Shown here piece by piece: positions 5,796-20,292 of a stretch of 64,000 nt of DNA. The stretch comes from Dictyostelium discoideum (taxonomy: Eukaryota). Made by a program: the position numbers and the translations under genes. Every line of letters begins with the position of its first letter. The first letter of the stretch is position 1. The stretch covers positions 1,312,001 to 1,376,000 of the forward strand of contig CM000154.2 in NCBI GenBank assembly GCA_000004695.1, given 5' to 3'. The notes beneath the pieces are model-generated. The model saw nothing but the letters and a program-made list of their open reading frames with translations, made no database searches and had not been told where the DNA came from.

Positions 5796-7928
5796 TATGT
5801 AAATGGATATATTGATAAACTTTGTGAAAGTGATAATTGTTATTTTTGCCCATGGGATGGTTCACTTGTTAGGGAATTATATTTTGGAGATATTAAACAA
5901 GATCTATTACTTCGTAATAATGAAAATCAACAAGTAAAACAAGTATATGAAGGTGATATTAAACAAGATTTAATTCGTCGTAAAAATAAAATTCATCCAG
6001 AAAAACAAATGCATGAAGAGGATATTAAACAACAAGTTTTTTTCCGTATCAAAAATATTCATGAAAAACCAGTTTATGAAGGTGATATCAAACAAGATTT
6101 ATTACGTCGTAAAAATAAAAATAATCCAGAGAAACAAGTATATGAAGGTGATATTAAACAAGATTTATTACGTCGTAAATATTATGATAAATCTCAATCA
6201 ACCCAAGTATATCAAGGTGATGTGATTCAAGATATATTACGTTCAATAAATCGTCAAGAAAAAGAAATTTATGAAGGTGATATCAAACAAGATTTATTAC
6301 GTCGTAATAATCAAAATAATCAAGAAAAACAAGTTTATGAAAGTGATATCAAACAAGATATTTTACGTCGTAAATATTATGAAAAATCCCAATCAACCCA
6401 AGTATATCAAGGTGATATGACTCAAGATATATTACGTTCATTAAATCGTCAAGAAAAAGGAGTTTATGAAGGTGATATCAAACAAGATTTATTACGTCGT
6501 AAGTATTATGATAAATCTCAATCAAACCAAGTATATCAAGGTGATGTGATTCAAGATATTTTACGTTCTATAAATCGTGATAAAAAACCAGTTTATGAAG
6601 GTGATATCAAACAAGATTTGTTGCTTCGTAATAATCAAAATCCACAAGAGAAATCAATATATGAAGGTGATATCAAACAAGATATATTACGTCGTAAAAA
6701 TCTTGATAAATCTCAATCAATACAATTTTATCCAGGTGATATTATTCAAGATATTTTACGTGTTTTAAATCGTGAGGAAAAAGAAGTTTATGATGGTGAT
6801 ATTAAACAAGACTTATTATCTCGTAAAAATCTTGCCAAATATCAATCAACAGAAGTATATCCAGGTGATGTCATTCAAGATGTTTTACGTGTATTAAATC
6901 ATGATGAAAAAGAAGTTTATGAAGTTGATATCAAACAAGACTTGTTACGTCGTAATAATAAAAATCCACAAGAGAAACCAGTATATGAAGGTGATATTAA
7001 ACAAGATATTTTACGTCGTAATAATCTTGATAAATCTCAACCAAAACAAGTATATCCAGGTGATACTATTCAAGATATTTTACGTATTATTAATCGTGAT
7101 GAGAAAGTTTACGAAGGTGATATTAAACAAGACTTATCAGGTCGTAAAAATCATCAAGAGAAAACTGTTTATGAAGGTGATATCAAACAAGACTTATTAC
7201 GTCGTAAAAATCTTGATAAACCTGATTCAAAACAAGTATATCCAGGTGATGTTATTCAAGATATTTTACGTGTTATTAATCGTGATGAAAAAGAAGTTTA
7301 TGAAGGTGATATTAAACAAGACTTATTACATCGTAATAACAAAAATCGTCAAGAGAAACCAGTATATGAAGGTGACATTAAACAAGATTTATTACGTCGT
7401 AATAACAAAAATCATCAAGAAGAACAAGTATATCAAGGTGATATTATTCAAGATATTTTACGTGTTTTAAATCATGAAGAGAAAGAAGTTTACGAAGGTG
7501 ATATTAAACAAAATTTGTTGCGTCGAAAAAATCATGATCATCCAGAAAAAGAAATTTATGAAGGTGATATTAAACAAGATTTATTACGTCGTAATAACAA
7601 AAACCATCAAGAGAAACTTGTTTATGAAGGTGACATTAAACAAGATTTATTACGTCGTAATAACAAAAATCATAAAGAAGAACAAGTATATCAAGGTGAT
7701 ATTATTCAAGATATTTTACGTGTTTTAAATCATGGAGAAAAAGAAGTAAATGAGGATGAAATTGAAAAAGATTTGATGCAACGTAAAAATCACCATCAAG
7801 AAGAAGAGGCTTCTGAAGACTTGGAAGAAGAAATTGGAAAACTTTGGAATAAACAAAGTCAAGCATTTGTTGAACAACATCCAAACCAACACAACAATCA
7901 AAAAACAATTCACTTGTCAAGACAATAA
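5796..7928 (+). CDS. Secreted tandem-repeat protein, exon 3: Cys-rich motif ([13 protein letters not shown]), then about 25 tandem 20-23-aa units (V)[12 protein letters not shown](K/N)N...EKQ
   Basis: Acceptor 'tccag' at 5795. The frame is continuous with track ORF 6009..7928 (ATG 6009 is in frame, 213 nt downstream). A super-repeat of about 65 aa (195 nt) recurs about 10 times, with a dibasic RR in every unit. Confidence 0.75.
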
Positions 7929-8045: not shown

Positions 8046-9113
8046 TTATTTAAATTCTTTAACTAATTGTTTGAATTCAGAGATTAAGTCATTAACAGTT
8101 AAAGAACCTCTAACGACATTATCACGAGTACGAACATTGACGGTGTTACCATTAATTTCTTCTTGACCAACGACCAAGATGTAATTGTATTGAGCAAGTT
8201 GAGCTTCACGAACTTTTTTAGAGATAGTTTTATCGGAATCATCGATATCACAATAGAAACCAGCATCAGAGATTTCTTTACAAACCTTTTGACCGTATTC
8301 ATTGTGAGTTTTATTGACAGTGACGACGATAGCTTGACGTGGTGAGACCCATAATGGCCATTTACCACCGGTATGTTCGATTAAAATTGCCATCATTCTT
8401 TCGACGGAACCCAAGATAGCACGATGAATGATAACTGGTCTCTTTTTGAGTTCGGCAGCATCATCAGATTGATACTCTAAATCGAAACGAATTGGTAATT
8501 GGAAATCTAATTGAATGGTGGCACATTGATGACTTCTCTTGAGACAATCGGTGATGTGAATATCAATCTTTGGACCATAGAAAGCACCATCTTTTGGATT
8601 TAATTTCCATGGTTTACCAAATTTATTGAGGGCTTTCTCGAGGGAGGCTTCAGCAATATCCCATTGAGCGATTTCACCAAGGAAATTGTCTGGACGAGTT
8701 GAAAGTTCTAAACCAAATTCGAAACCAAAAATACCATAAACATATTGCATGAAACCTAAACAACTATTGATTTCATCTTCAATCATTTCGGTGGTACAAA
8801 AGATGTGAGCATCATCTTGTTGGAATTTACGTACACGAGTTAAACCAGTCAATGCACCTGCTAATTCATTACGATGTAAAACACCAAAATCTGCAAAACG
8901 TAATGGTAATTCACGATATGATCTTTGACGTGATCCAAACATTAAACAATGACCTGGACAATTCATTGGTTTCAATGAGAAATTGTCTTTATCAACTGGT
9001 AATACAAACATATTTTCGGAATACTTTTGCCAATGTCCTGATTGTTCCCAAAGTTTTTGTGAGAAAATTGATGGTGAAATAACTTCAGTAAATCCTCTTC
9101 TATGATATTCTTC
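8046..9113 (-). CDS. thrS: Threonyl-tRNA synthetase, exon 4 of 4 (class II catalytic core plus anticodon-binding domain)
   Basis: [106 protein letters not shown]... contains ThrRS motifs. Acceptor AG is the complement of 9114-9115, and the exon is in frame with track ORF 8046..9011. Confidence 0.85.
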
Positions 9114-9143
9114 CTTTATTTTTTTTTTTTTTAAGAAAAAAAA

Positions 9144-9183
<40 letters not shown>

Positions 9184-9227
9184 ATATTATTTTAGATGAT
9201 AATAATTATTATTTTTAAATTACTTAC

Positions 9228-9735
9228 TCTAATAAATTCAACTAATTTATTATAAATTCTAGTGCCATGTGGTAAAAAGAAAGCACTACCTGGTGAATAT
9301 GGATGGAAAAAGAAGAGTTCTTGAGCTTTACCAACATTTCTATGATCACGGAGAGCAGCTTCTCTCATGAAATTTTCATATTCTTCCATTTGTTTTTTAT
9401 CTGGGAAAGAGATACCATAGACTCTTTGTAAATCATCATTTTCAGCTTTACCTAACCAATAAGCGCTTGAATTCTTGGTAACAGCAAATGATTTAATATA
9501 ACTAGTATTTGGTACATGTGGACCTCTACATAAATCAACTAAAGTACCACAACGATATAATGATACAGTATCCTCTTGTGGAATCTTTGAAATGATTTCA
9601 GTCTTGTATTTGTTAAATTTAAACATAGTTAATGCAATATCTCTTGGTACTGCTAATCTTTCAAATGGTTGTTTCTCTTGAACAATCTTTTGTGCTACTT
9701 CATTAATTAATTTATAATCTTCTGCTGATACAATC
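9228..9735 (-). CDS. thrS: Threonyl-tRNA synthetase, exon 3 of 4
   Basis: [95 protein letters not shown]...KLVEFIR. Donor GTAAGT is at 9222-9227 and acceptor 'ttattatag' at 9736-9737. Confidence 0.8.
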
Positions 9736-9846
9736 CTATAATAAATAAATAAATAAATAATTAATAAAATGATTTTGAATGATTTGATCAAATTGACAAT
9801 ATTGTTGTTTCATTTGGTATTATTGAAATTAATTTTGAATATTTAC

Positions 9847-10195
9847 TTATCACCCATAGCCATATCATAATAAAAACCTTCAGAAGTGGCTGGACCAATA
9901 CATAATTGACCACCATAAATTCTTTCCATAGCTTGACCTAAAATATGAGCAGATGAATGCCAAAAAGTTTTTTTACCTTCTTCAGAATCAAATTTACATA
10001 ATTGTAAATTACAATCAGCTTCGAGTGGTCTAGAGATATCCCAAATTTGTTCACCATTAACTTTTGATGAAACAATTGAATCAGCAAGACCTCTTGAAAT
10101 ACCCTTTGCAATATCATATGGGGTGGTTTTATTTTTAATACCTGCTACAACTTTACCATCTGGTAAAGTAACATTAATTGGTTCTTCTTTCATAT
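9847..10195 (-). CDS. thrS: Threonyl-tRNA synthetase, exon 2 of 4 (TGS domain)
   Basis: [117 protein letters not shown]. Donor is GTAAAT and the exon ends in phase 2. Confidence 0.8.
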
Positions 10196-10362
10196 CTATT
10201 TAAATTTTAAAAAAAAAAAAAAATATATATAAAAAAAAAAATAAAATAAAATAAAAAGATATTAATAAAATATTATAACCTAAAAATAGTTTTTTTTTTT
10301 TTTATTTTTTTTTTTTTTTTTTTTATTTTTTTTTATTTTTATTTATTTATTATTATTATTAC

Positions 10363-10570
10363 CTTTAAGTGATTCTAAGTGTTTTGCTTTTAAACTTTCC
10401 CAAATTTCAATTCTTTCTTTGACGTAATCTGGAGTTTGGAGAGTTTCCATGACACCAACTTTCTTTACAGCTGGTTTCTTTTCTTTCTTTTCAGCAGCTG
10501 GTTTCTTTTCAGCAACTGGTTTAACTTCAGTTGGAGTTTCAACTGGTTTATTTTCTTGTGAATCTGACAT
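10363..10570 (-). CDS. thrS: Threonyl-tRNA synthetase, exon 1 of 4 (Lys/Glu-rich N-terminal extension)
   Basis: MSDSQENKPVETPTEVKPVAEKKPAAEKKEKKPAVKKVGVMETLQTPDYVKERIEIWESLKAKHLESLK, then donor GTAATA. All four exons are phase-consistent, giving 2133 nt and about 710 aa. Confidence 0.8.
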
Positions 10571-11199: not shown

Positions 11200-11657
11200 T
11201 TAATAGAAATTATCAAGAAAATCATCAGTTTCTTGTGAGGCATGAGTAATGATTATGGTATTTGAAAATTTCAAATTATTGAGATTATTATTTTGGATGA
11301 ATTGATTCGCCATAAAATTTCCAATTTCTTTTTTAATTTCCAAACTATTTTCATCTTCATTGATGTATAACAATTTTTGATCACAATTATTATTATTGTT
11401 GATGTTATTAATTTCATTATTACTGTTATTAAAGTTGTTTTCATTATTTTTAATAAAACTATTATAAAATTGAGTATAATTTATATCTTTTCCAATCCAA
11501 ACATATAAAATCCTATCATATTTTGAAATTAAAATAAATAAACCATCATCAGCTAAATCTTCACAATCAAATACATCATATTCTTCCCATGAATTTTCTT
11601 CTTTTATGAAACGGTATAGATATGCTCTACCATTACCATTTCCATTACTATTATTAA

Positions 11658-11718
<61 letters not shown>

Positions 11719-13545
11719 TTTGCTATTATTATTTACAAGTTGTTCGGTTGTTGTTGTAGTTGTTATAGTAGTAGTTGTTGTAGTACTATTATTATTATTG
11801 TTGTTATTATTATTATTTGTTGTACCATTATGATTATTTATAAAATCAGAGATACTATATTGTTGAGTTTTAAAATCTTTATCATATGCAAATACTAAAC
11901 CAACACCACCTTCACCACCAAGGTGATCCCAAAACTTATCATCTTCATGACCTTGTCGAAGTTCGATAATATTGGTTGAATCATTTTCGTAGCGTTGAAA
12001 TCTTGAGATGGCAAGTTTGGCAGATTCCAAAAATAAGTCACCCAATTTACCAACACAGCCTTCACCACTCCAAATGTAGATACAATCGGTCACACGAAGT
12101 ATAAAACAACAACGTGCATCCAATGAAAGATAGGAAACGGTTTGAACTCTTTTTGGTACTATTAGTCCATCCAATAGTTGAACCATTCTATAGAGTAGTG
12201 GTTGCTCCTTCACAGAGGGATGTTGAAGATGTTTCAATAGAAATTTATTCCAATACATTAGTTGACCAGTGAAACCAGGATTTGGATTTGAAATGTATCT
12301 TCTCTTTTTGGTGAATTCGTGTGCCTGTTGAAAACTCCATTTATTGATCCACATTAGATAGAGTATAACGAATGCTGAGCTTCTTGAGATACCTTGATGA
12401 CAATGAATATAAACTTTACCATTGGTTTTGGTTGCATCTTGAATGAAATCTAAAATCTCATAGAATAAACAACTAATATCCTCTCCATTGCCATCACTAA
12501 TGAATAAAGTTTTATAAACGAAATGGTCTTGGAAATGATTCGGACAAACCATACCCGCACAATTTAGAATATGTGTTATACCTTCACCCTTTAACAATTG
12601 TAGGTTGGATGCTGGTATTCTACTACCTAAATAGAGTTCATCAACAATTCTATTCAATGTTGGTTCAAAAAATAATATTAACTCTTTTTGTGATAAATGT
12701 TGGAACTCTTCTTGACATTGATCAATTCTATGTGAGACACTTGGTGGTATCATTATATTATTATTATTATTATTATTATTGTGATAACTATTAAGATGAC
12801 TTAAATTTGGTGGTATGGTACCTCTAGGAGTTGATGGTGGAGTAATTCTTAAAGAATTTAAATCTGGTAATTTTAATGATTTCTTTACCCAATTTGTGTT
12901 ATTTGTAGTTGTAGTTGTGGTCGTGGTTGTTGATGATGAGGATGAAGATGTTGATGATGATGGTAATGGCATTGATGACATTGACATTTGCTTACCAAAG
13001 TTTAATGAGGGTACTACTTTTTTAGAAGCATTTGTTATTTGATTATTTGTTGAAGTTGTTGTGGTTGTTGTTGTTGTTGATGATGATACTCCATTACCAT
13101 TTGATTTAGTATTTGATAAATTTAATGAGAGTTTTGGAACCATTATTGGTTTAATTAATTTCTCTTGTTGTATTGGTTCTTGTGATGATGATGATGATGG
13201 TGGTGGTTGTTCTTGATGCTGTGTTATTGGCTGTTGTAAAGGTAAAGATAAGGATGGAATCTTACCTTTTGGAATTTGGATTTTTGGTATTATTGTTGTT
13301 GTTGTTGTGGTAGTTGTTGGTGGTGGGGATGATGTTACATTAATTGTTTTAGTTGGTGAATGTTGCGGTTGTGTTGATCCAGATTTAGAATCAGCTATTG
13401 GTATTGGTAAAAATAATGGGGATGGCGAAGACGATGATGATGAGGGTGATGTTGGTGGAGAGAATGAAAGTTTCTTTAATACTTCAAACAATGGTTTTGT
13501 ATTTATTGATGTATTATCACCATTAGTGATTGGCAGTGATGGTGG

Positions 13546-13625
<80 letters not shown>

Positions 13626-14039
13626 GGGATGGGGAAGGTGGTTGTGATGATTCTTTCTTTTTAACAGTATTGCTTTGGCTCTCATCTTTTTTATTTAAAT
13701 TGTTCAGGTTATTTGGATTGTTATTGTTATTATCATCACCACTACTATTATTATTATTATTATAATTATTACTATTACTAAAGTTAGAGTTATTACTATT
13801 AAAATTTCCATTATTATGATTATTTCCATTATTATTATTATTATTATTATTGTTTTGGTTATGATTATTGTTATTATTATTTTGGTTATTTTGACTATTG
13901 TTATCATTATTGCTATGATTATACTGATTGATTGTTTTTAAATTAACAAATATATTACTTATATTTAAAATAGTTGATGGTTGAGTTATAACCTGAACAG
14001 AAGATGGTATATTATTTCCATTATTAGTTATATTTTGAC

Positions 14040-14132
<93 letters not shown>

Positions 14133-14594
14133 CTTGATTATTATTACAAAAGGTATTAATATTAAAATTTGTCTTTAAAAATGTTGGTTGAAAATTATTT
14201 TTTATAAAATGTTTACAAAAATTGAAAAAATTTTTATTTGGTATTGAATCATCACCATCTTCACTTTGAAATTGAATTGAATTTTCAAAGGGTATTAATT
14301 CTCCATCAAATAAACTGAAATCATTATCAATAAAATAATTTGATATTGGCGAAAAATTTACAAAATTACTATTATTATTATTTATATTATTATTATTATT
14401 GTCAACTAAATAATCAATATTGTTATTACTATTAAGATTACTATTTACACCAATCCTCTTTTCAAATAATTTTTGTATAATTTGAGAGGAATTGTTTGGT
14501 AATTTCCAATATTTATTCGAGTCGTATGATGTAGTTTGAGTGTTGTTATTATTAATATTATTATTATTGTTATTATTATTGTTATTATTATTAA

Positions 14595-14691
<97 letters not shown>

Positions 14692-15096
14692 ATTATGATT
14701 ATTAATATTAATATTAATATTATTATGATTATTAATATTAATATTAATATTATTATTATTATTATTATTATTAGTGATAGCAGCGGTTGTTAATGATGAA
14801 AAAGATGATTCTGAAATGGTTTGTGGTTGTAATGATGATGAAGCTGCTGATGATGATGAAAAAGATGCAGAAGATGATGAGGATAATGATGTAGTTGATG
14901 AAGATGAAGATGTTGGTGATAATAAAGGTGATGATGAAGAAGAAGATGATGGCGACTGTTTTACAGCAAGACTCTCACTAAACTTTAGTGCTTTTGAAAA
15001 TTCAAGTGCTTTTGATAAACAAAATGCACGTGATAATGAATCTGAATTTTTACCATTCCATGTATATAAATCATGTAATAGCTTGCAATTTAATAA

Positions 15097-15130
<34 letters not shown>

Positions 15131-15686
15131 ATTAATACTTTATTTATAATAATAAAATAAAATAAAATAAAATAAAATAAAATAAAATAAAATAAAATAA
15201 ATACCTTATTATTTGAATCAAAATAAGAAAATAATGGATCATGTGATAAAATATTATTTAAACTTCTAGGTGATGATATATATGATTTATTAACATTATT
15301 TTGATTTGAATTAAAAACATGTAAAATTATATAACATTCCGATTGATTATAATTTTTATAATGAAGTAAATCTACAGATTGAAATTGTATTATTGAATCA
15401 CTATTTTGATCCACTAAAACCTTCCAAATAAATAAATAAGACCCAAATATTTCGGCTATTGGTGTTGATGTTGGTGTAACTAAATTACTATAACTACTAC
15501 CACCTCCATTACTATTACTATTACTATTACTACTAATATTACTATTATTATTATTATTATTATTAATATTATTATTATTATTATTATTATTTATATTATT
15601 AAAAAGGTGATGATGATGAATATTATGATTTATTATGGTTGTTGGTATTGAAACTACAAGTGGACTATTTTTACATTTATTTTTAT

Positions 15687-15718
<32 letters not shown>

Positions 15719-15954
15719 CAACTACTACTAACACTATTATTACTACTGTTACTGCTACTGCTATTACTATTATTACAATTATTAATTGTTGTCGTTGTAG
15801 TTGTAGTCGTTGTTGTTATTGTATTTTTAAGTTTTGTATTGGTTGTATTTAAATTTGGTGTTATTGTTGAATTTTGAAAAGATTTAAGGTCATGTACTTT
15901 AAATAAATCATCTAATTGAGGTGGGGAAACACTAACTCCAATTGTATTACCCAT
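11200..15954 (-). CDS. Large low-complexity protein with a dual-specificity phosphatase domain followed by two gelsolin-like repeats. The N-terminal about 1000 aa is poly-N/S/T/Q, including Q34
   Basis: Single 1584-codon ORF. The DSP signature VYIHCHQGISRSSAFVILYLM has its catalytic Cys near 12395. Gelsolin-like segments are DARCCFILRVTDCIYIWSGEGCVGKLGDLFLESAKLAISRF... and FDCEDLADDGLFILISKYDRILYVWIGKDIN. The start MGNTIG is a possible N-myristoylation site. Confidence 0.75.
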
Positions 15955-16020: not shown

Positions 16021-16165
<145 letters not shown>

Positions 16166-16231: not shown

Positions 16232-16274
<43 letters not shown>

Positions 16275-17696: not shown

Positions 17697-18099
17697 CTAA
17701 AGAGTATCTTCGGCATCAGTAAAATATTCATCACTATCACTACTACTGCCGTCTATTTCACTAATGCTGATGAAAATTGAATCTTTGGAAACATTTGTAT
17801 CATTGTTGGTTTGAGATTCACATGTATCAATATCTTGATACTCATAATTTGATTCTAATGTTGAGTTTGTTTTTGATTTAAAAGAAACTTTTGAGGATGG
17901 TTTATTTTCTGGTTCTGATGAAATATCTGGTTCTGATAAATCTGATTCATCTGAGGAAGGTTCTATACCAGACTCAAAAGAAGAGCTCAAGCTCGATTCT
18001 GAATCAGAGTCAGAGTTCTGGTTTGATTCAGAATCAGAGTTCTGGTCTGAATCAGAGTCAGAGTTCTGGCCTGATACAGAGTTCTGGGCTGGGCACTCC

Positions 18100-18155
<56 letters not shown>

Positions 18156-19702
18156 AAGGGTGTGGTCATTATGATAATTATTATTATTATTATTATCATC
18201 ATCACCATCATCAACATCATCATCATCATCATCATCTTCTTCTTCTTCTTCTTCATTATCATCATCATCATAATTGTCCTCATCATCATAGTCGTCTTCA
18301 TCGTAATTATCGTCACCATTATTATTATCATCAAGGTTATATTGTATTTTTGGATGGTTCGATTTGATATGTTTTAAAAGGTAATCATTTCTTTTAAAGC
18401 TAGAATCACATATTTCACAACTGAATCTAGTGATTGTGTCAATTGATTTCTTGTGAAACTTTCTGATATGTTTGGTAAGATTGCTTTGAGTCGAAAAGAT
18501 TTTGTTACAATGTTTACATTCTTTTTTTTTTTTCAACTCATTCTCAATTTTACTGATTTCTTCACCATTAATATCAGTTTTTTTATCTTTATGAATCGCT
18601 TTAATATGTCTTATTAAATTATATCTTTTAGTAGAGTAATATGAATTACATAAGCCACATTTAAATTTTGGTTTTGGGTTATGTCCTTTTTCCATTTGGC
18701 AATTCGTACTACAATCATAGTGAGAAGAATTTTCATGTCTTAAAACGTGGTCTTTTGAATTATTAGTGAATTTGGAACCATTTGCACCCTTTAAACAAAT
18801 TTCATGTCTACACTCTTTTGTAGCCTCCATTTTTAAGGTTGAATTTTTGGTAGGAGTTTTACTTTTAATATTTTGAATTTTATTTTCTTTGTTCTGTATT
18901 TCTTTTTCTGTTTTCTTTTTTCTTTCGTTTTCTTTTTTTCTTTCGTTTTCTTTTTTTCTTTCGTTTTCTTTTTTTCTTTCGTTTCCATTTTCATTTTCAT
19001 TTTCTTTTTCTTTTTCATTTTCGTTTTCATTTTCATTTTCATTTCCTTTTTCATTTTCATTTTCATTTTCATTTTCATTTCCTTTTTCTTTTTCTTTTTC
19101 ATTTATTGGTTCAATACCACTATATCCATTGTGATCATCTCTATTATTGCTATGATTAAAATCGTTATAATCATTACTGTTATCACCACTAGAATTAAAA
19201 TCGCTGGTGGTATAGTCACTAGTCTTATTACTATCATTATCAGAATTCTTCATTCCATTATCATTTGCTATTGGTAGAGATGCAGTTGATGGGGTTTTAG
19301 CAGAAGTTGTAGTTTTTGTTTTGGATGGATCTATATTACCTGTTTGATGTTGTGCAGTTTTTTTGGGTGATTCTAAATATAAAGGTTGGTTTGTTTCCAA
19401 AGATTGATCTATTGAATTTGGTGTTTGTTGATCATTTGGTTCTAATGATTGATTTAAGGTTGATTTTTGGTGTGCTGTTTTTGATTTTAAATGTTGTTCT
19501 GTATATTTTGGTTTTGAGTCAGATGGAAGTGGTTTTTGTAATTGTTTATTGATGATTGAGTTTTGTAGTTGCTCTTTTGGTGGAGGTTTCTCAAGGGTTT
19601 TTAATCTAAATGGTGAGGTGGTTATTGAAGATATTGATTCAAAAGTTTTCGAAAGCAATGATTTTATGTTCTTTCTTTCATTTTCATTATTGTAATTAAT
19701 AG

Positions 19703-19736
<34 letters not shown>

Positions 19737-20090
19737 ACTTTCTTTATTATTTTTATTAATTGCAACATCTTTTTTTTTATTTTCACTTGAATCTTTAATT
19801 TGGATTCTAGCATTTTCATTGTTTTCATCGTCTTTGTCATTTTCATTTTCACCCCCATCATCATCCATTAATAAAGCATTTGTGATTTTATTAATTGTAT
19901 GCTTTTTGTTTGGTAAACTGAGTTCATCTGGTTCTGAATCTGAACCCCAAGGATCTTTTCTTTTATTTGTGAGGGGTTGTCTTTTTTTTGTAAGTGTTTT
20001 TTTAATTTCATTTTTTTCAATTCCCCCGCTATTGTCCCTTTTAAAAAATGAAAATAATATCGATGAGCTTGAAGTTGTTGTATTACTCAT
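17697..20090 (-). CDS. C2H2 zinc-finger protein with acidic, poly-N and (ENENEK)n low-complexity regions
   Basis: At least three canonical C2H2 fingers: KCGLCNSYYSTKRYNLIRHIKAIH, KHCNKIFSTQSNLTKHIRKFH and FSCEICDSSFKRNDYLLKHIKSNH. The chosen start is MSNTTTSSSS at 20088-20090; the track ORF extends 30 codons further 5' through AT-rich UTR-like sequence. Confidence 0.7.
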
Positions 20091-20292
20091 TTTTATTTTA
20101 TTTTGTTTGAAATACTCTTGATATATGTTTATCAAATAAATAATGAAAAAAAAATTTTTTAAAAAAAAAAAATGAGACAAATTCGGCTCTTTAAGAATAA
20201 AAAAAAAAAAAATTTTTAAAAAAAAAAAATAATCTTTGCAATTTTAGTCAATTTACAAATTTTACCGCCTATTTTTTTTTTTTTTTTTTTCT

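What the first reader, a model, noticed from the sequence alone, without database searches (positions are those of the whole stretch)
11200..15954. Dual-specificity phosphatase fused to gelsolin-like repeats behind about 1000 aa of poly-N/S/T/Q
The DSP active site VYIHCHQGISRSSAFVILYLM is followed by two segments with the gelsolin-fold pattern (CCFILRVTDCIYIWSGEGC...AKLAISRF and FDCEDLADDGLFILISKYDRILYVWIGKDIN). A phosphatase physically tethered to an actin-binding module is an unusual architecture. It is conceptually reminiscent of slingshot-type cofilin phosphatases but built from different parts. The N-terminal two-thirds is extreme low complexity, including a Q34 tract at about 13530-13630 and long poly-N runs.
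Basis: partly seen in the sequence, partly recalled or inferred. Interest (0 to 1): 0.5.

Follow-up and report, generated by a model that had tools for sequence, protein, structure and literature searches.

The report
Dictyostelium mkpA: phosphatase with gelsolin domains
The region is a real gene for a MAP-kinase-type phosphatase that carries gelsolin-like domains, but it is the already named and annotated Dictyostelium gene mkpA, and plants have long been known to have the same domain combination in MKP1.

Summary
Window 11200-15954 (- strand) is one 4755-nt gene. It encodes a dual-specificity phosphatase (DSP) domain followed by two gelsolin-homology domains, embedded in long poly-N/S/T/Q tracts.

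Corrections:
- The Q tract is Q27, not Q34.
- The ORF reads through an in-frame 123-nt intron (15082-15204), so the protein is 1543 aa.
- The N-terminal part is not all low complexity. It starts with a conserved MGNxxG myristoylation-type motif and holds a third, divergent gelsolin-fold domain.

The architecture is not new. The span (4755 bp), the description and a phosphosite number (residue 1001 is Thr in S-T-P-R of my spliced model) match dictyBase gene mkpA (DDB_G0288249). [quoted passage not shown] It is a cAMP-responsive phosphoprotein, and its disruption gives a "developmentally null" phenotype.

The DSP + gelsolin + C-terminal gelsolin layout is that of plant MKP1, a proven MAPK phosphatase, and of many protist homologues. 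The catalytic domain is closest to human DUSP1, DUSP4 and DUSP2.

The most likely function is a membrane- or cortex-targeted ERK phosphatase. Whether the gelsolin domains bind actin is untested, and the canonical Ca2+ and actin-contact residues are not conserved. Novelty: already known. Interest: low.

The parts
11200..15954 (-). Whole gene, ATG to stop. It matches D. discoideum mkpA (DDB_G0288249). Exon 1 is 15205-15954 and exon 2 is 11200-15081. The product is 1543 aa.
   Evidence: ORF. Splice model. dictyBase gives mkpA at chr5:1323200-1327954, which is 4755 bp, the same as this span.
15082..15204 (-). In-frame 123-nt AT-rich intron (GTATTT...TTGCAAG) that interrupts the N-terminal gelsolin-like domain.
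   Evidence: The read-through translation gives 'VFILFYFILFYF...FFFFFFFFF'. GT/AG ends. Removing it restores collinearity with homologues (...FDSNNK|LLHDLYTWNGK). It also puts a Thr at the published phosphosite number 1001.
15934..15954 (-). N-terminus MGNTIGV, which fits the N-myristoylation consensus G-{EDRKHPFYW}-x(2)-[STAGCN]-{P}.
   Evidence: M1, G2 and N3 are invariant in 21 aligned homologues. 27 of 123 family proteins start with MGN. 27 of the 38 that start with MG fit the pattern, including oomycete-type members.
14980..15447 (-). G0: a divergent N-terminal gelsolin-fold domain (unspliced aa ~170-325) with a variable insertion. Absent from plant MKP1.
15265..15273 (-). S-P-R motif (aa 228-230) in the G0 insertion. 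It lies where the family consensus reads E-x-L-T-P-R-G.
   Evidence: Alignment A4 and motif scan. The [S/T]PR motif is the ErkB target motif according to PMC6397043 (abstract).
12715..14979 (-). Low-complexity linker (unspliced aa 326-1080): poly-N, poly-S/T and Q27, with short conserved islands such as FEVLKKL at 13468-13488.
   Evidence: Homopolymer list. Codon repeats. The FEVLKKL-type match to P0038/P0091 is not significant alone (E about 3).
13546..13626 (-). Perfect (CAA)27 repeat encoding Q27.
   Evidence: period 3, 27.3 copies, 100% matches.
12859..12885 (-). KKSLKLPDL: a candidate MAPK-docking (D-motif-like) element. It resembles the 'RLKLDLS' / 'LKIDLSEL' motif found upstream of the DSP domain in plant and protist homologues.
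   Evidence: It is the only [KR]{2,3}-x(1-6)-phi-x-phi match in the linker. Comparison of upstream regions. The docking function is inferred.
12823..12834 (-). S-T-P-R motif. The Thr is residue 1001 of the spliced protein (1042 unspliced).
   Evidence: Table S3 of PMC6397043 lists an mkpA phosphosite at position 1001.
12244..12636 (-). Dual-specificity phosphatase catalytic domain (unspliced aa 1107-1237). P-loop HCHQGISR at 12382-12405: Cys1185 and Arg1191 unspliced, C1144 and R1150 spliced. General-acid Asp1154 at 12493-12495.
   Evidence: Pfam DSPc E=6.8e-26. H, C, G, S, R and S are invariant in 44 homologues. Best PDB match is the DUSP1 catalytic domain, E=1.1e-29, with the Asp aligned to the D of DUSP1 'VEDNH'. 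In the AF2 model the 10-residue pLDDT block means across the domain core are 94-98, and it superposes on DUSP1 at 0.8-1.0 A with 40% identity.
11860..12207 (-). G1: gelsolin-homology domain directly after the DSP domain (unspliced aa ~1250-1365).
   Evidence: Profile A3 hits gelsolin at E=3e-40, best on gelsolin domain 5 (36.8 bits). 26 of 32 members hit Pfam Gelsolin. AF2 10-residue pLDDT block means across the domain are 92-97, element order strand x4, long helix, strand, short helix. It aligns contiguously with the DSP domain to Brassica MKP1: 35% identity over 263 aa, E=1e-54.
11638..11859 (-). Poly-N/T linker between G1 and G2, predicted disordered.
   Evidence: pLDDT is below 50 for model residues 293-356.
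11203..11637 (-). G2: C-terminal gelsolin-homology domain (MKP1 'gelsolin_C' type) with a poly-N insertion. Unspliced aa ~1440-1584.
   Evidence: Profile A2 hits villin at 1.7e-30 and gelsolin at 3e-21, best on domain 6. This protein scores 20 bits on PF25466 against a cutoff of 27, while the Stygamoeba orthologue scores 39.8 and Brassica MKP1 scores 114.9. AF2 10-residue pLDDT block means are 72-93 outside the insertion.

Best explanation
This is the Dictyostelium discoideum gene mkpA (DDB_G0288249). [quoted passage not shown]

Shown here:
- A catalytically intact DSP domain (Cys/Arg P-loop plus general-acid Asp), closest to the DUSP1/4/2 MAPK-phosphatase catalytic domains.
- Two gelsolin-homology domains after it, laid out as in plant MKP1.
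- An extra, divergent gelsolin-fold domain before it.
- A conserved myristoylation-type N-terminus.
- Long disordered poly-N/S/T/Q linkers that are absent from the orthologues.

Inferred mechanism:
- The enzyme removes the activating phosphates from Dictyostelium ERKs (ErkB and/or ErkA).
- It is held at the membrane or cell cortex by N-myristoylation and by its gelsolin-fold modules.
- It docks the kinase through short basic-hydrophobic motifs in the linker (KKSLKLPDL).
- It is itself phosphorylated on proline-directed [S/T]PR sites (T1001, perhaps S228) as a feedback input.

The gelsolin-fold domains most likely act as targeting or regulatory modules rather than as Ca2+-driven actin severers. 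I put direct actin binding at about one in three.
For: Identity:
- The span is 4755 bp, the same as the dictyBase mkpA coordinates.
- The published phosphosite number 1001 falls on Thr of PPS-T-PR-G in my spliced model.

Catalysis:
- Pfam DSPc E=6.8e-26.
- Invariant HCxxGxSRS.
- Alignment to DUSP1 at E=1e-29, including the general-acid Asp.
- The model superposes on DUSP1 at 0.8-1.0 A.

Family:
- 35% identity over contiguous DSP+G1 to Brassica MKP1, E=1e-54.
- Profile search E=4e-85 to proteins named MKP1 in Brassica. Homologues named MKP1 or MAP kinase phosphatase 1 also occur in green algae, oomycetes and a metamonad.
- Collinear MGN-G0-DSP-G1-G2 match to the Stygamoeba orthologue.

Function of the family: plant MKP1 binds MPK3/4/6 and deactivates MPK6 (PMC6255987).

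Dictyostelium biology:
- MkpA is in the core chemoattractant phosphoproteome. It is discussed as a putative MAPK phosphatase targeted by ErkB (PMC6397043).
- mkpA disruptants cluster with 'developmentally null' mutants piaA, yakA and dagA (PMC2323234).

Gelsolin folds.
Myristoylation consensus.
Against: - No substrate has been shown for MkpA. The MAPK assignment rests on homology and on the name.
- There is no rhodanese/KIM domain of the kind classical animal MKPs use for docking (no such hit).
- Table 1 of PMC6397043 does not tick the p[S/T]PR column for MkpA. Its link to ErkB is therefore the authors' suggestion rather than a mapped site.
- For the targeting idea, residues matching gelsolin's type-2 Ca2+ ligands and the G1 Ile103 actin contact are not conserved in G0, G1 or G2. 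I read this from the HMMER alignments. The residue roles come from my knowledge of gelsolin structures, not from a tool.
- Plant MKP1 is reported as cytoplasmic, with no actin link in the review read.
- Myristoylation is a motif match only.
Confidence: 0.72

Rival explanations
1. Slingshot-like reading. The gelsolin domains bind F- or G-actin. The phosphatase then acts on actin regulators such as cofilin, or on actin itself, rather than on MAP kinases.
For: - There are three gelsolin-fold domains, and G0 is structurally closest to actin-bound domain-1 structures.
- Slingshot-2 is the fourth-best PDB match of the catalytic domain, at E=1e-20, and superposes at 0.9 A.
- The protein is phosphorylated during chemotactic signalling.
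Against: - The catalytic domain scores higher against DUSP1, DUSP4 and DUSP2 (106, 97 and 90 bits) than against Slingshot-2 (77 bits).
- No Slingshot N-terminal or DEK_C family is among the seven Pfam families listed for the protein.
- The orthologous plant enzyme is a proven MAPK phosphatase.
- The key actin-contact and Ca2+-ligand positions of gelsolin are not conserved (plus my own knowledge of residue roles).
Confidence: 0.1
2. The gelsolin-fold domains have lost actin binding altogether. They serve as protein-protein or intramolecular regulatory modules, for example MAPK or calmodulin binding or control of the active site, much like the gelsolin-like domains of Sec23/24. The enzyme is still a MAPK phosphatase.
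For: - The canonical Ca2+ and actin-contact residues are not conserved.
- G1 follows the DSP domain after a short conserved linker, and both are modelled with high confidence as one unit.
- Plant MKP1 is regulated by calmodulin and by its substrate kinase, and it is cytoplasmic.
- Sec23 and Sec24 appear among the weak gelsolin-fold hits.
Against: - Nothing was tested directly.
- G1 and G2 remain recognisably close to true actin-binding gelsolin and villin domains (E=1e-30 to 1e-40).
- That degree of conservation across plants, amoebae and stramenopiles argues for a shared ligand, and actin is the obvious candidate.
Confidence: 0.4
3. Gene-model artefact. The long ORF joins two separate genes, an N-terminal gelsolin-like protein and a C-terminal phosphatase, or the N-terminal low-complexity part is not translated.
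For: There are about 750 aa of low-complexity sequence between G0 and the DSP domain, and one intron was missed by simple ORF reading.
Against: - There is a single uninterrupted frame in DNA of about 20% GC.
- Homologues of 550-750 aa carry the same MGN-G0-DSP-G1(-G2) order in one chain.
- The dictyBase gene has the same 4755-bp span, and a phosphosite numbered 1001 fits the full-length spliced protein.
Confidence: 0.02

Closest known systems
Plant MKP1 (Arabidopsis AtMKP1, tobacco NtMKP1, wheat TaMKP1/TMKP1; 'Protein-tyrosine-phosphatase MKP1')
   Same: - A DSP catalytic domain is followed directly by a gelsolin-homology domain, and the protein ends in a second gelsolin-type domain (PF25466).
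- 35% identity over 263 aa spanning DSP+G1, E=1e-54.
- The Pfam architecture is the same.
- An 'LKLxDLS'-like motif lies upstream of the DSP domain.
- MKP1 is a proven MAPK phosphatase.
   Different: - Plant MKP1 lacks the N-terminal gelsolin-fold domain G0 and the MGN N-terminus.
- The Dictyostelium protein is twice as long because of poly-N/S/T/Q insertions.
- Its G2 falls below Pfam's cutoff (20 bits against 27).
- Calmodulin binding was not examined.
Amoebozoan and other protist MKP1-like proteins (Stygamoeba P0030, Stenamoeba P0028, Luapelamoeba P0036, unnamed metagenome proteins)
   Same: The full architecture is shared: MGNxxG, G0, linker, DSP, G1 and, where the sequence is complete, G2. 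It is collinear with the window protein.
   Different: - They are 550-750 aa long, without the long homopolymer tracts.
- Their G0 insertion carries the consensus 'E-x-L-T-P-R-G', which is reduced to S-S-P-R-S here.
Animal classical MKPs (DUSP1/MKP-1, DUSP4, DUSP2)
   Same: Closest solved catalytic domains: DUSP1 at E=1e-29, 40% identity, 0.8-1.0 A. Same HCxxGxxR(S/T) loop and general-acid Asp.
   Different: No N-terminal rhodanese/CH2 domain with a kinase-interaction motif (no hit). Animal MKPs have no gelsolin domains.
Slingshot cofilin phosphatases (SSH1-3)
   Same: A DSP-family catalytic domain (Slingshot-2 at E=1e-20) joined to an actin-related regulatory theme.
   Different: - The accessory domains are different.
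- Slingshot is a weaker match than the MAPK phosphatases.
- There is no evidence here for cofilin as a substrate.
Gelsolin/villin/severin/fragmin family
   Different: - A phosphatase domain sits between the first and second gelsolin-fold domains.
- Positions matching the type-2 Ca2+ ligands and the G1 Ile103 actin contact are not conserved.
- G0 carries a large insertion.
- At sequence level its domain type is ambiguous.
Dictyostelium MPL1 (LRR-containing MAPK phosphatase)
   Same: It is the other putative ERK phosphatase of Dictyostelium, named together with MkpA as an ErkB-pathway phosphoprotein.
   Different: By its published name it has leucine-rich repeats instead of gelsolin domains. It was not compared here.

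Membership tests
Dual-specificity phosphatase (Cys-based PTP superfamily, Pfam DSPc PF00782) | P-loop HCxxGxxR(S/T) with catalytic Cys and Arg | tested here: met
   HCHQGISRS at unspliced aa 1184-1192. H, C, G, S, R and S are invariant in 44 homologues.
Dual-specificity phosphatase (Cys-based PTP superfamily, Pfam DSPc PF00782) | General-acid Asp about 30 residues before the Cys | tested here: met
   D1154 (ISDGNGEDIS) aligns with the D of DUSP1 'VEDNHKADIS'. It is nearly invariant in the family. That this DUSP1 Asp is the general acid is my own knowledge.
Dual-specificity phosphatase (Cys-based PTP superfamily, Pfam DSPc PF00782) | Domain score above the curated threshold, and the DSP fold | tested here: met
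   91.1 bits against a cutoff of 33.5. The AF2 10-residue pLDDT block means across the domain core are 94-98, and Foldseek places it on DUSP1 at 0.8-1.0 A.
MKP1-type DSP-gelsolin phosphatases (plant MKP1 and protist homologues) | A gelsolin-homology domain immediately C-terminal to the DSP domain | tested here: met
   Contiguous alignment to Brassica MKP1 across both domains. The G1 profile hits gelsolin at 3e-40.
MKP1-type DSP-gelsolin phosphatases (plant MKP1 and protist homologues) | A C-terminal 'MPK1_gelsolin_C' domain (PF25466) at the end of the protein | tested here: inconclusive
   This protein scores 20 bits against a cutoff of 27. It aligns over the full domain with members that pass, Stygamoeba at 39.8 bits and Brassica at 114.9. 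The family profile hits villin and gelsolin domain 6.
MKP1-type DSP-gelsolin phosphatases (plant MKP1 and protist homologues) | Binds and dephosphorylates MAP kinases | not testable with these tools
   Shown for plant MKP1 (PMC6255987). For MkpA there is only the label 'putative' (PMC6397043).
Classical animal MKPs (DUSP1/6 type) | N-terminal rhodanese (CH2) domain carrying the kinase-interaction motif | tested here: not met
   There is no rhodanese hit among the Pfam families at E<=10. Only a short KKSLKL motif is present in the linker.
Gelsolin/villin superfamily | The gelsolin fold: a central sheet with a long helix, then a strand and a short helix | tested here: met
Gelsolin/villin superfamily | Conserved type-2 Ca2+ ligands (the Asp before the core strand and the Glu on the long helix) | tested here: not met
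   In the HMMER alignments, gelsolin D565 and E587 align to Gly/Cys and Leu in G1. The D670 and E692 positions align to variable residues or Gly and to Gln in G2. The E97 position is Ser in G0. The residue roles come from my knowledge of gelsolin structures, and the mapping was read by hand.
Gelsolin/villin superfamily | Binds actin (monomer, filament side or barbed end) | not testable with these tools
   No experiment or complex model is available. The equivalent of the G1 Ile103 contact is Ala in the family and Ser here.
Slingshot phosphatases | Slingshot N-terminal and DEK_C domains, and a catalytic domain closest to SSH | tested here: not met
   No such family is among the seven Pfam families listed for the protein. 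SSH2 scores 77 bits against 106 for DUSP1.
N-myristoylated proteins | N-terminal Met-Gly fitting G-{EDRKHPFYW}-x(2)-[STAGCN]-{P} | tested here: met
   MGNTIGV fits. MGN is invariant in A4. 27 of the 38 homologues that start with MG fit the pattern. Actual lipidation was not testable.

The most novel reading that the evidence does not exclude
The three gelsolin-fold domains may be one severin/fragmin-like three-domain unit (domain-1-like G0, domain-2/5-like G1, domain-3/6-like G2) that was split when a DSP domain was inserted after the first domain. Together with N-myristoylation, this unit would tether an ERK phosphatase to the membrane and cortical actin. ERK would then be switched off locally during chemotaxis, with [S/T]PR phosphorylation in the G0 insertion (family consensus LTPRG) and at T1001 as feedback. 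On this reading plant MKP1 is a derived form that lost the first domain and the lipid anchor. Nothing I could read describes the N-terminal domain, the conserved lipidation motif or the LTPRG motif. I could not check InterPro or dictyBase directly.
Probability: 0.2. Interest if true: 0.5.

Novelty: already known. Interest (0 to 1): 0.18.

Why it matters
As handed over, the finding rediscovers an annotated gene, so it adds little. Its residual value is as a lead.

- The gelsolin domains of the MKP1 family are conserved from plants to amoebae and stramenopiles. The papers I could search give them no function.
- Dictyostelium mkpA has a strong developmental phenotype and is phosphorylated within the chemotactic ERK pathway.
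- The organism is genetically tractable. It is therefore a good place to ask whether these domains link MAPK inactivation to actin or to the membrane.
- The extra N-terminal gelsolin-fold domain and the conserved myristoylation-type N-terminus are concrete, testable additions.

Tried and rejected
- Exact-sequence look-ups of the spliced and unspliced proteins found nothing. The protein collection seems not to hold the D. discoideum entry. The best homologue there is 48% identical, so the gene name had to come from a paper's supplement.
- Pfam on the isolated gelsolin segments of this protein is sub-threshold. Homologue profiles were needed.
- Foldseek on the 500-aa DSP-G1-G2 model listed only DSP structures among the 50 matches shown. 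It says nothing about the gelsolin part.
- The afdb50 library was unavailable.
- Four papers were not held, so I could not read what they say about the gelsolin region: AtMKP1-calmodulin (PMC3259760), MKP1 UV-B stabilisation (PMC3537045), Ulm 2001 (PMC312655) and the id I tried for the Dictyostelium genome paper (PMC1352341).
- Literature searches for MKP1 + gelsolin + actin found no functional study.
- I considered a fused-gene artefact and rejected it (see rivals).
- I did not use the large representative-protein search or the metagenome scans, because the identity was settled without them.

Full report
**What is in the sequence.**
Window 11200-15954 holds one ATG-to-stop reading frame of 1584 codons on the - strand. 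The surrounding DNA is 14-31% GC. With stop codons expected at roughly one codon in eleven (my estimate from composition), such a frame cannot be chance.

The translation contains a stretch 'VFILFYFILFYFILFYF...FFFFFFFFF' that looks like a translated AT-rich intron. The DNA there starts with GTATTT and ends with TTGCAAG. It is 123 nt long, so it is in frame, and it lies at window 15082-15204. Removing it gives a 1543-aa protein.

The composition, the poly-N/Q tracts and the short AT-rich intron point to Dictyostelium.

- The quoted active-site string is at unspliced aa 1181-1201, inside a strong Pfam DSPc match (aa 1107-1237, E=6.8e-26).
- The first 1080 residues are 26% Asn and 15% Ser, with runs up to N31.
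- The glutamine run is a perfect (CAA)27, giving Q27 at window 13546-13626, not Q34.
- On this protein alone the gelsolin signal is marginal. Pfam Gelsolin reaches 22.8 bits only by summing three stretches (cutoff 21). Each isolated segment scores 14.6-16.7 bits.

Because the signal was marginal, I tested the gelsolin claim with homologues.

**Homologues and the gelsolin domains.**
A search with aa 1085-1375 found proteins 32-48% identical across the DSP domain and the following segment. Many of them carry precomputed DSPc plus Gelsolin hits. A profile search extended this to proteins that NCBI or UniRef name 'Protein-tyrosine-phosphatase MKP1' in Brassica (E about 4e-85). It also reached 'MAP kinase phosphatase 1' in a green alga, oomycetes and a metamonad.
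- G1 (aa ~1250-1365). A 32-sequence profile hits gelsolin chains in the PDB at E=3e-40. The best single stretch is on gelsolin domain 5 (36.8 bits, i-E 2.9e-8). 26 of the 32 members match Pfam Gelsolin individually.
- G2 (aa ~1440-1584). A 20-sequence profile hits villin at 1.7e-30 and gelsolin at 3e-21, best on domain 6. 10 of 20 members match PF25466 'MPK1 gelsolin domain C-terminal'.
- AlphaFold2 model of aa 1085-1584, built with 44 aligned sequences. The 10-residue pLDDT block means are 94-98 across the DSP core, 92-97 across G1 and 72-93 for G2 outside its poly-N insertion. The poly-N linkers are disordered. Both gelsolin domains show four strands, a long helix, a strand and a short helix, which I recognise as the canonical gelsolin order.

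Pfam's best Gelsolin stretch was at aa 285-322, near the N-terminus. Full-length homologues of 550-750 aa begin MGNxxG. They carry a conserved block 'S-x-L-x-x-W-R-F ... C-Y-I-x-L-H ... (insertion) ... D-x-Y-x-W-N-G-K-x-S-x-x-L-x-x-A-x-A-L-A-K', which the spliced window protein shares.
- A profile of this region (G0) hits villin at E=9e-12.
- An AF2 model has pLDDT 72.5 overall, with core blocks at 82-94.
- G0 occurs in 31 of the 123 collected homologues. These include the amoebozoans Stygamoeba, Stenamoeba and Luapelamoeba, but no plant MKP1.
- M-G-N is invariant in the alignment. MGNTIGV fits the PROSITE N-myristoylation pattern, as do 27 of the 38 family members that start with MG, oomycete-type ones included.

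The architecture is therefore (myristoyl-type N-terminus)-G0-linker-DSP-G1-linker-G2.

**Identity of the gene.**
The protein collection does not contain this exact protein. Table S3 of Nichols et al. [quoted passage not shown]
- That span is 4755 bp, exactly the span of the window ORF.
- In my spliced model, residue 1001 is the Thr of PPS-T-PR-G. In the unspliced frame it would be residue 1042.

I take this as identification of the gene and as independent support for the intron.

The same paper places MkpA in the core set of proteins phosphorylated after both cAMP and folate. [quoted passage not shown] However, Table 1 as held does not tick the p[S/T]PR column for MkpA.

Sawai et al. 2007 (PMC2323234) group mkpA disruptants with 'developmentally null' mutants such as piaA, yakA and dagA.

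**How it most likely works.**

Shown:
- The catalytic machinery is intact. HCHQGISRS is present, with Cys, Arg and flanking residues invariant across 44 homologues. Asp1154 aligns with the D of DUSP1 'VEDNH', which I know to be the general acid.
- The closest solved catalytic domains are the MAPK phosphatases DUSP1 (1e-29, 106 bits), DUSP4 (97 bits) and DUSP2 (90 bits). Slingshot-2 comes fourth (1e-20, 77 bits). The model superposes on DUSP1 at 0.8-1.0 A with 40% identity.
- DSP and G1 align contiguously to Brassica MKP1: 35% identity over 263 aa, E=1e-54. Brassica MKP1 has DSPc, Gelsolin and MPK1_gelsolin_C above Pfam thresholds.
- Plant MKP1 binds MPK3/4/6 and deactivates MPK6. mkp1 mutants hyper-activate MPK3/6 (PMC6255987).

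Inferred:
- MkpA dephosphorylates ErkB and/or ErkA.
- It is membrane-associated through N-myristoylation.
- The single basic-hydrophobic motif in the linker, KKSLKLPDL, serves in kinase docking. It resembles the 'RLKLDLS' or 'LKIDLSEL' motif upstream of the DSP domain in plant and protist homologues.
- [S/T]PR phosphorylation at T1001, and possibly at S228, provides feedback. S228 lies in the G0 insertion where the family consensus is E-x-L-T-P-R-G.

**Do the gelsolin domains bind actin?**
This cannot be settled here. I read positions from the HMMER alignments. The residue roles come from my knowledge of gelsolin structures.
- In G1, the equivalents of gelsolin's type-2 Ca2+ ligands D565 and E587 are Gly (Cys here) and Leu.
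- In G2, the D670 and E692 positions are variable or Gly, and Gln.
- In G0, the E97 position is Ser and the G1 Ile103 actin contact is Ala in the family and Ser here.

This argues against a conventional Ca2+-activated severing or capping function, but not against actin binding as such.

**Comparison and novelty.**
- The protein is a member of the MKP1-type DSP-gelsolin family.
- It is not a classical animal MKP, because it has no rhodanese/KIM domain.
- It is not a Slingshot.
- The DSP-plus-gelsolin combination is published for plant MKP1 (PMC11182583) and is encoded in Pfam families.
- The Dictyostelium gene is named and described as a gelsolin-family MAPK phosphatase.

The finding is therefore already known.

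Three things are not described in anything I could read: the N-terminal gelsolin-fold domain, the conserved myristoylation-type N-terminus and the family-wide LTPRG motif. I could not check InterPro or dictyBase pages directly, so I do not claim them as new.

**Surroundings.**
- Downstream on the same strand is a threonyl-tRNA synthetase gene in several exons (TGS, class II core and anticodon-binding domains).
- Upstream is a C2H2 zinc-finger ORF.
- A perfect (TTA)45 repeat and a poly(A)36 run lie just upstream of the start codon.
- The + strand ORFs inside the gene are antisense readings of codon repeats.

None of this bears on the finding.

Noticed in passing
window 15082-15204 (- strand): An in-frame 123-nt AT-rich intron is read through by simple ORF calling. 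It adds 41 spurious F/I/L-rich residues in the middle of a folded domain. Other long ORFs in this window may hide similar in-frame introns.
   Followed up: yes
window 16023-16159 and 16237-16272: A perfect (TTA)45 microsatellite (100% matches) and a poly(A)36 run lie immediately upstream of the mkpA start codon.
   Followed up: no
window 8046-10570 (- strand): A threonyl-tRNA synthetase gene lies in several exons directly downstream of mkpA: a TGS domain ORF at 9843-10193, and the class II core plus anticodon-binding domain at 8046-9011. The ORF at 10343-10570 is probably its first exon.
   Followed up: partly
window 17697-20180 (- strand): The upstream neighbour is an 827-aa ORF with a single C2H2/BED-type zinc finger at aa 550-577.
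   Followed up: no
window 6009-7928 (+ strand): A 639-aa ORF gives Pfam E-values of 6e-12 (NMB0315_dom_I) and 1.4e-9 (YopX), but no matched stretch passes on its own. These are probably low-complexity artefacts.
   Followed up: no
P0049 (UniRef F2E2U0 / BAK01662.1, 'predicted protein, Hordeum vulgare'): This barley-labelled protein has the protist-type architecture (MGN N-terminus plus G0), which no other plant MKP1 in the set has. It may be a contaminant from a protist in the barley cDNA collection.
   Followed up: no
alignment A4 columns ~150-180; window 15265-15273: The variable insertion inside G0 carries a strongly conserved 'S-S-x-E-x-L-T-P-R-G-x-x-x-x-F-G' motif in most homologues (S-S-P-R-S here). 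T-P-R matches the [S/T]PR motif reported for ErkB targets.
   Followed up: partly
window 13468-13488 (aa 823-829, FEVLKKL): This is a short island in the low-complexity linker that recurs in the closest homologues (PRYEVLKKL in P0038 and P0091, PRFEVLRK in P0044). It is not significant on its own (E about 3).
   Followed up: partly
homologues P0101, P0105, P0110, P0112, P0114, P0115, P0122 (the named ones, P0105, P0115 and P0122, are oomycete proteins): These relatives lack G0 but also begin with MG and fit the myristoylation pattern. N-terminal lipidation may be ancestral to the non-plant part of the family.
   Followed up: partly
window 11200-15954 (+ strand): Several 60-150-aa ORFs on the opposite strand (poly-L, poly-I, poly-V, poly-C) are antisense readings of the AAT, CAA and ACA codon repeats. 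They are not genes.
   Followed up: no
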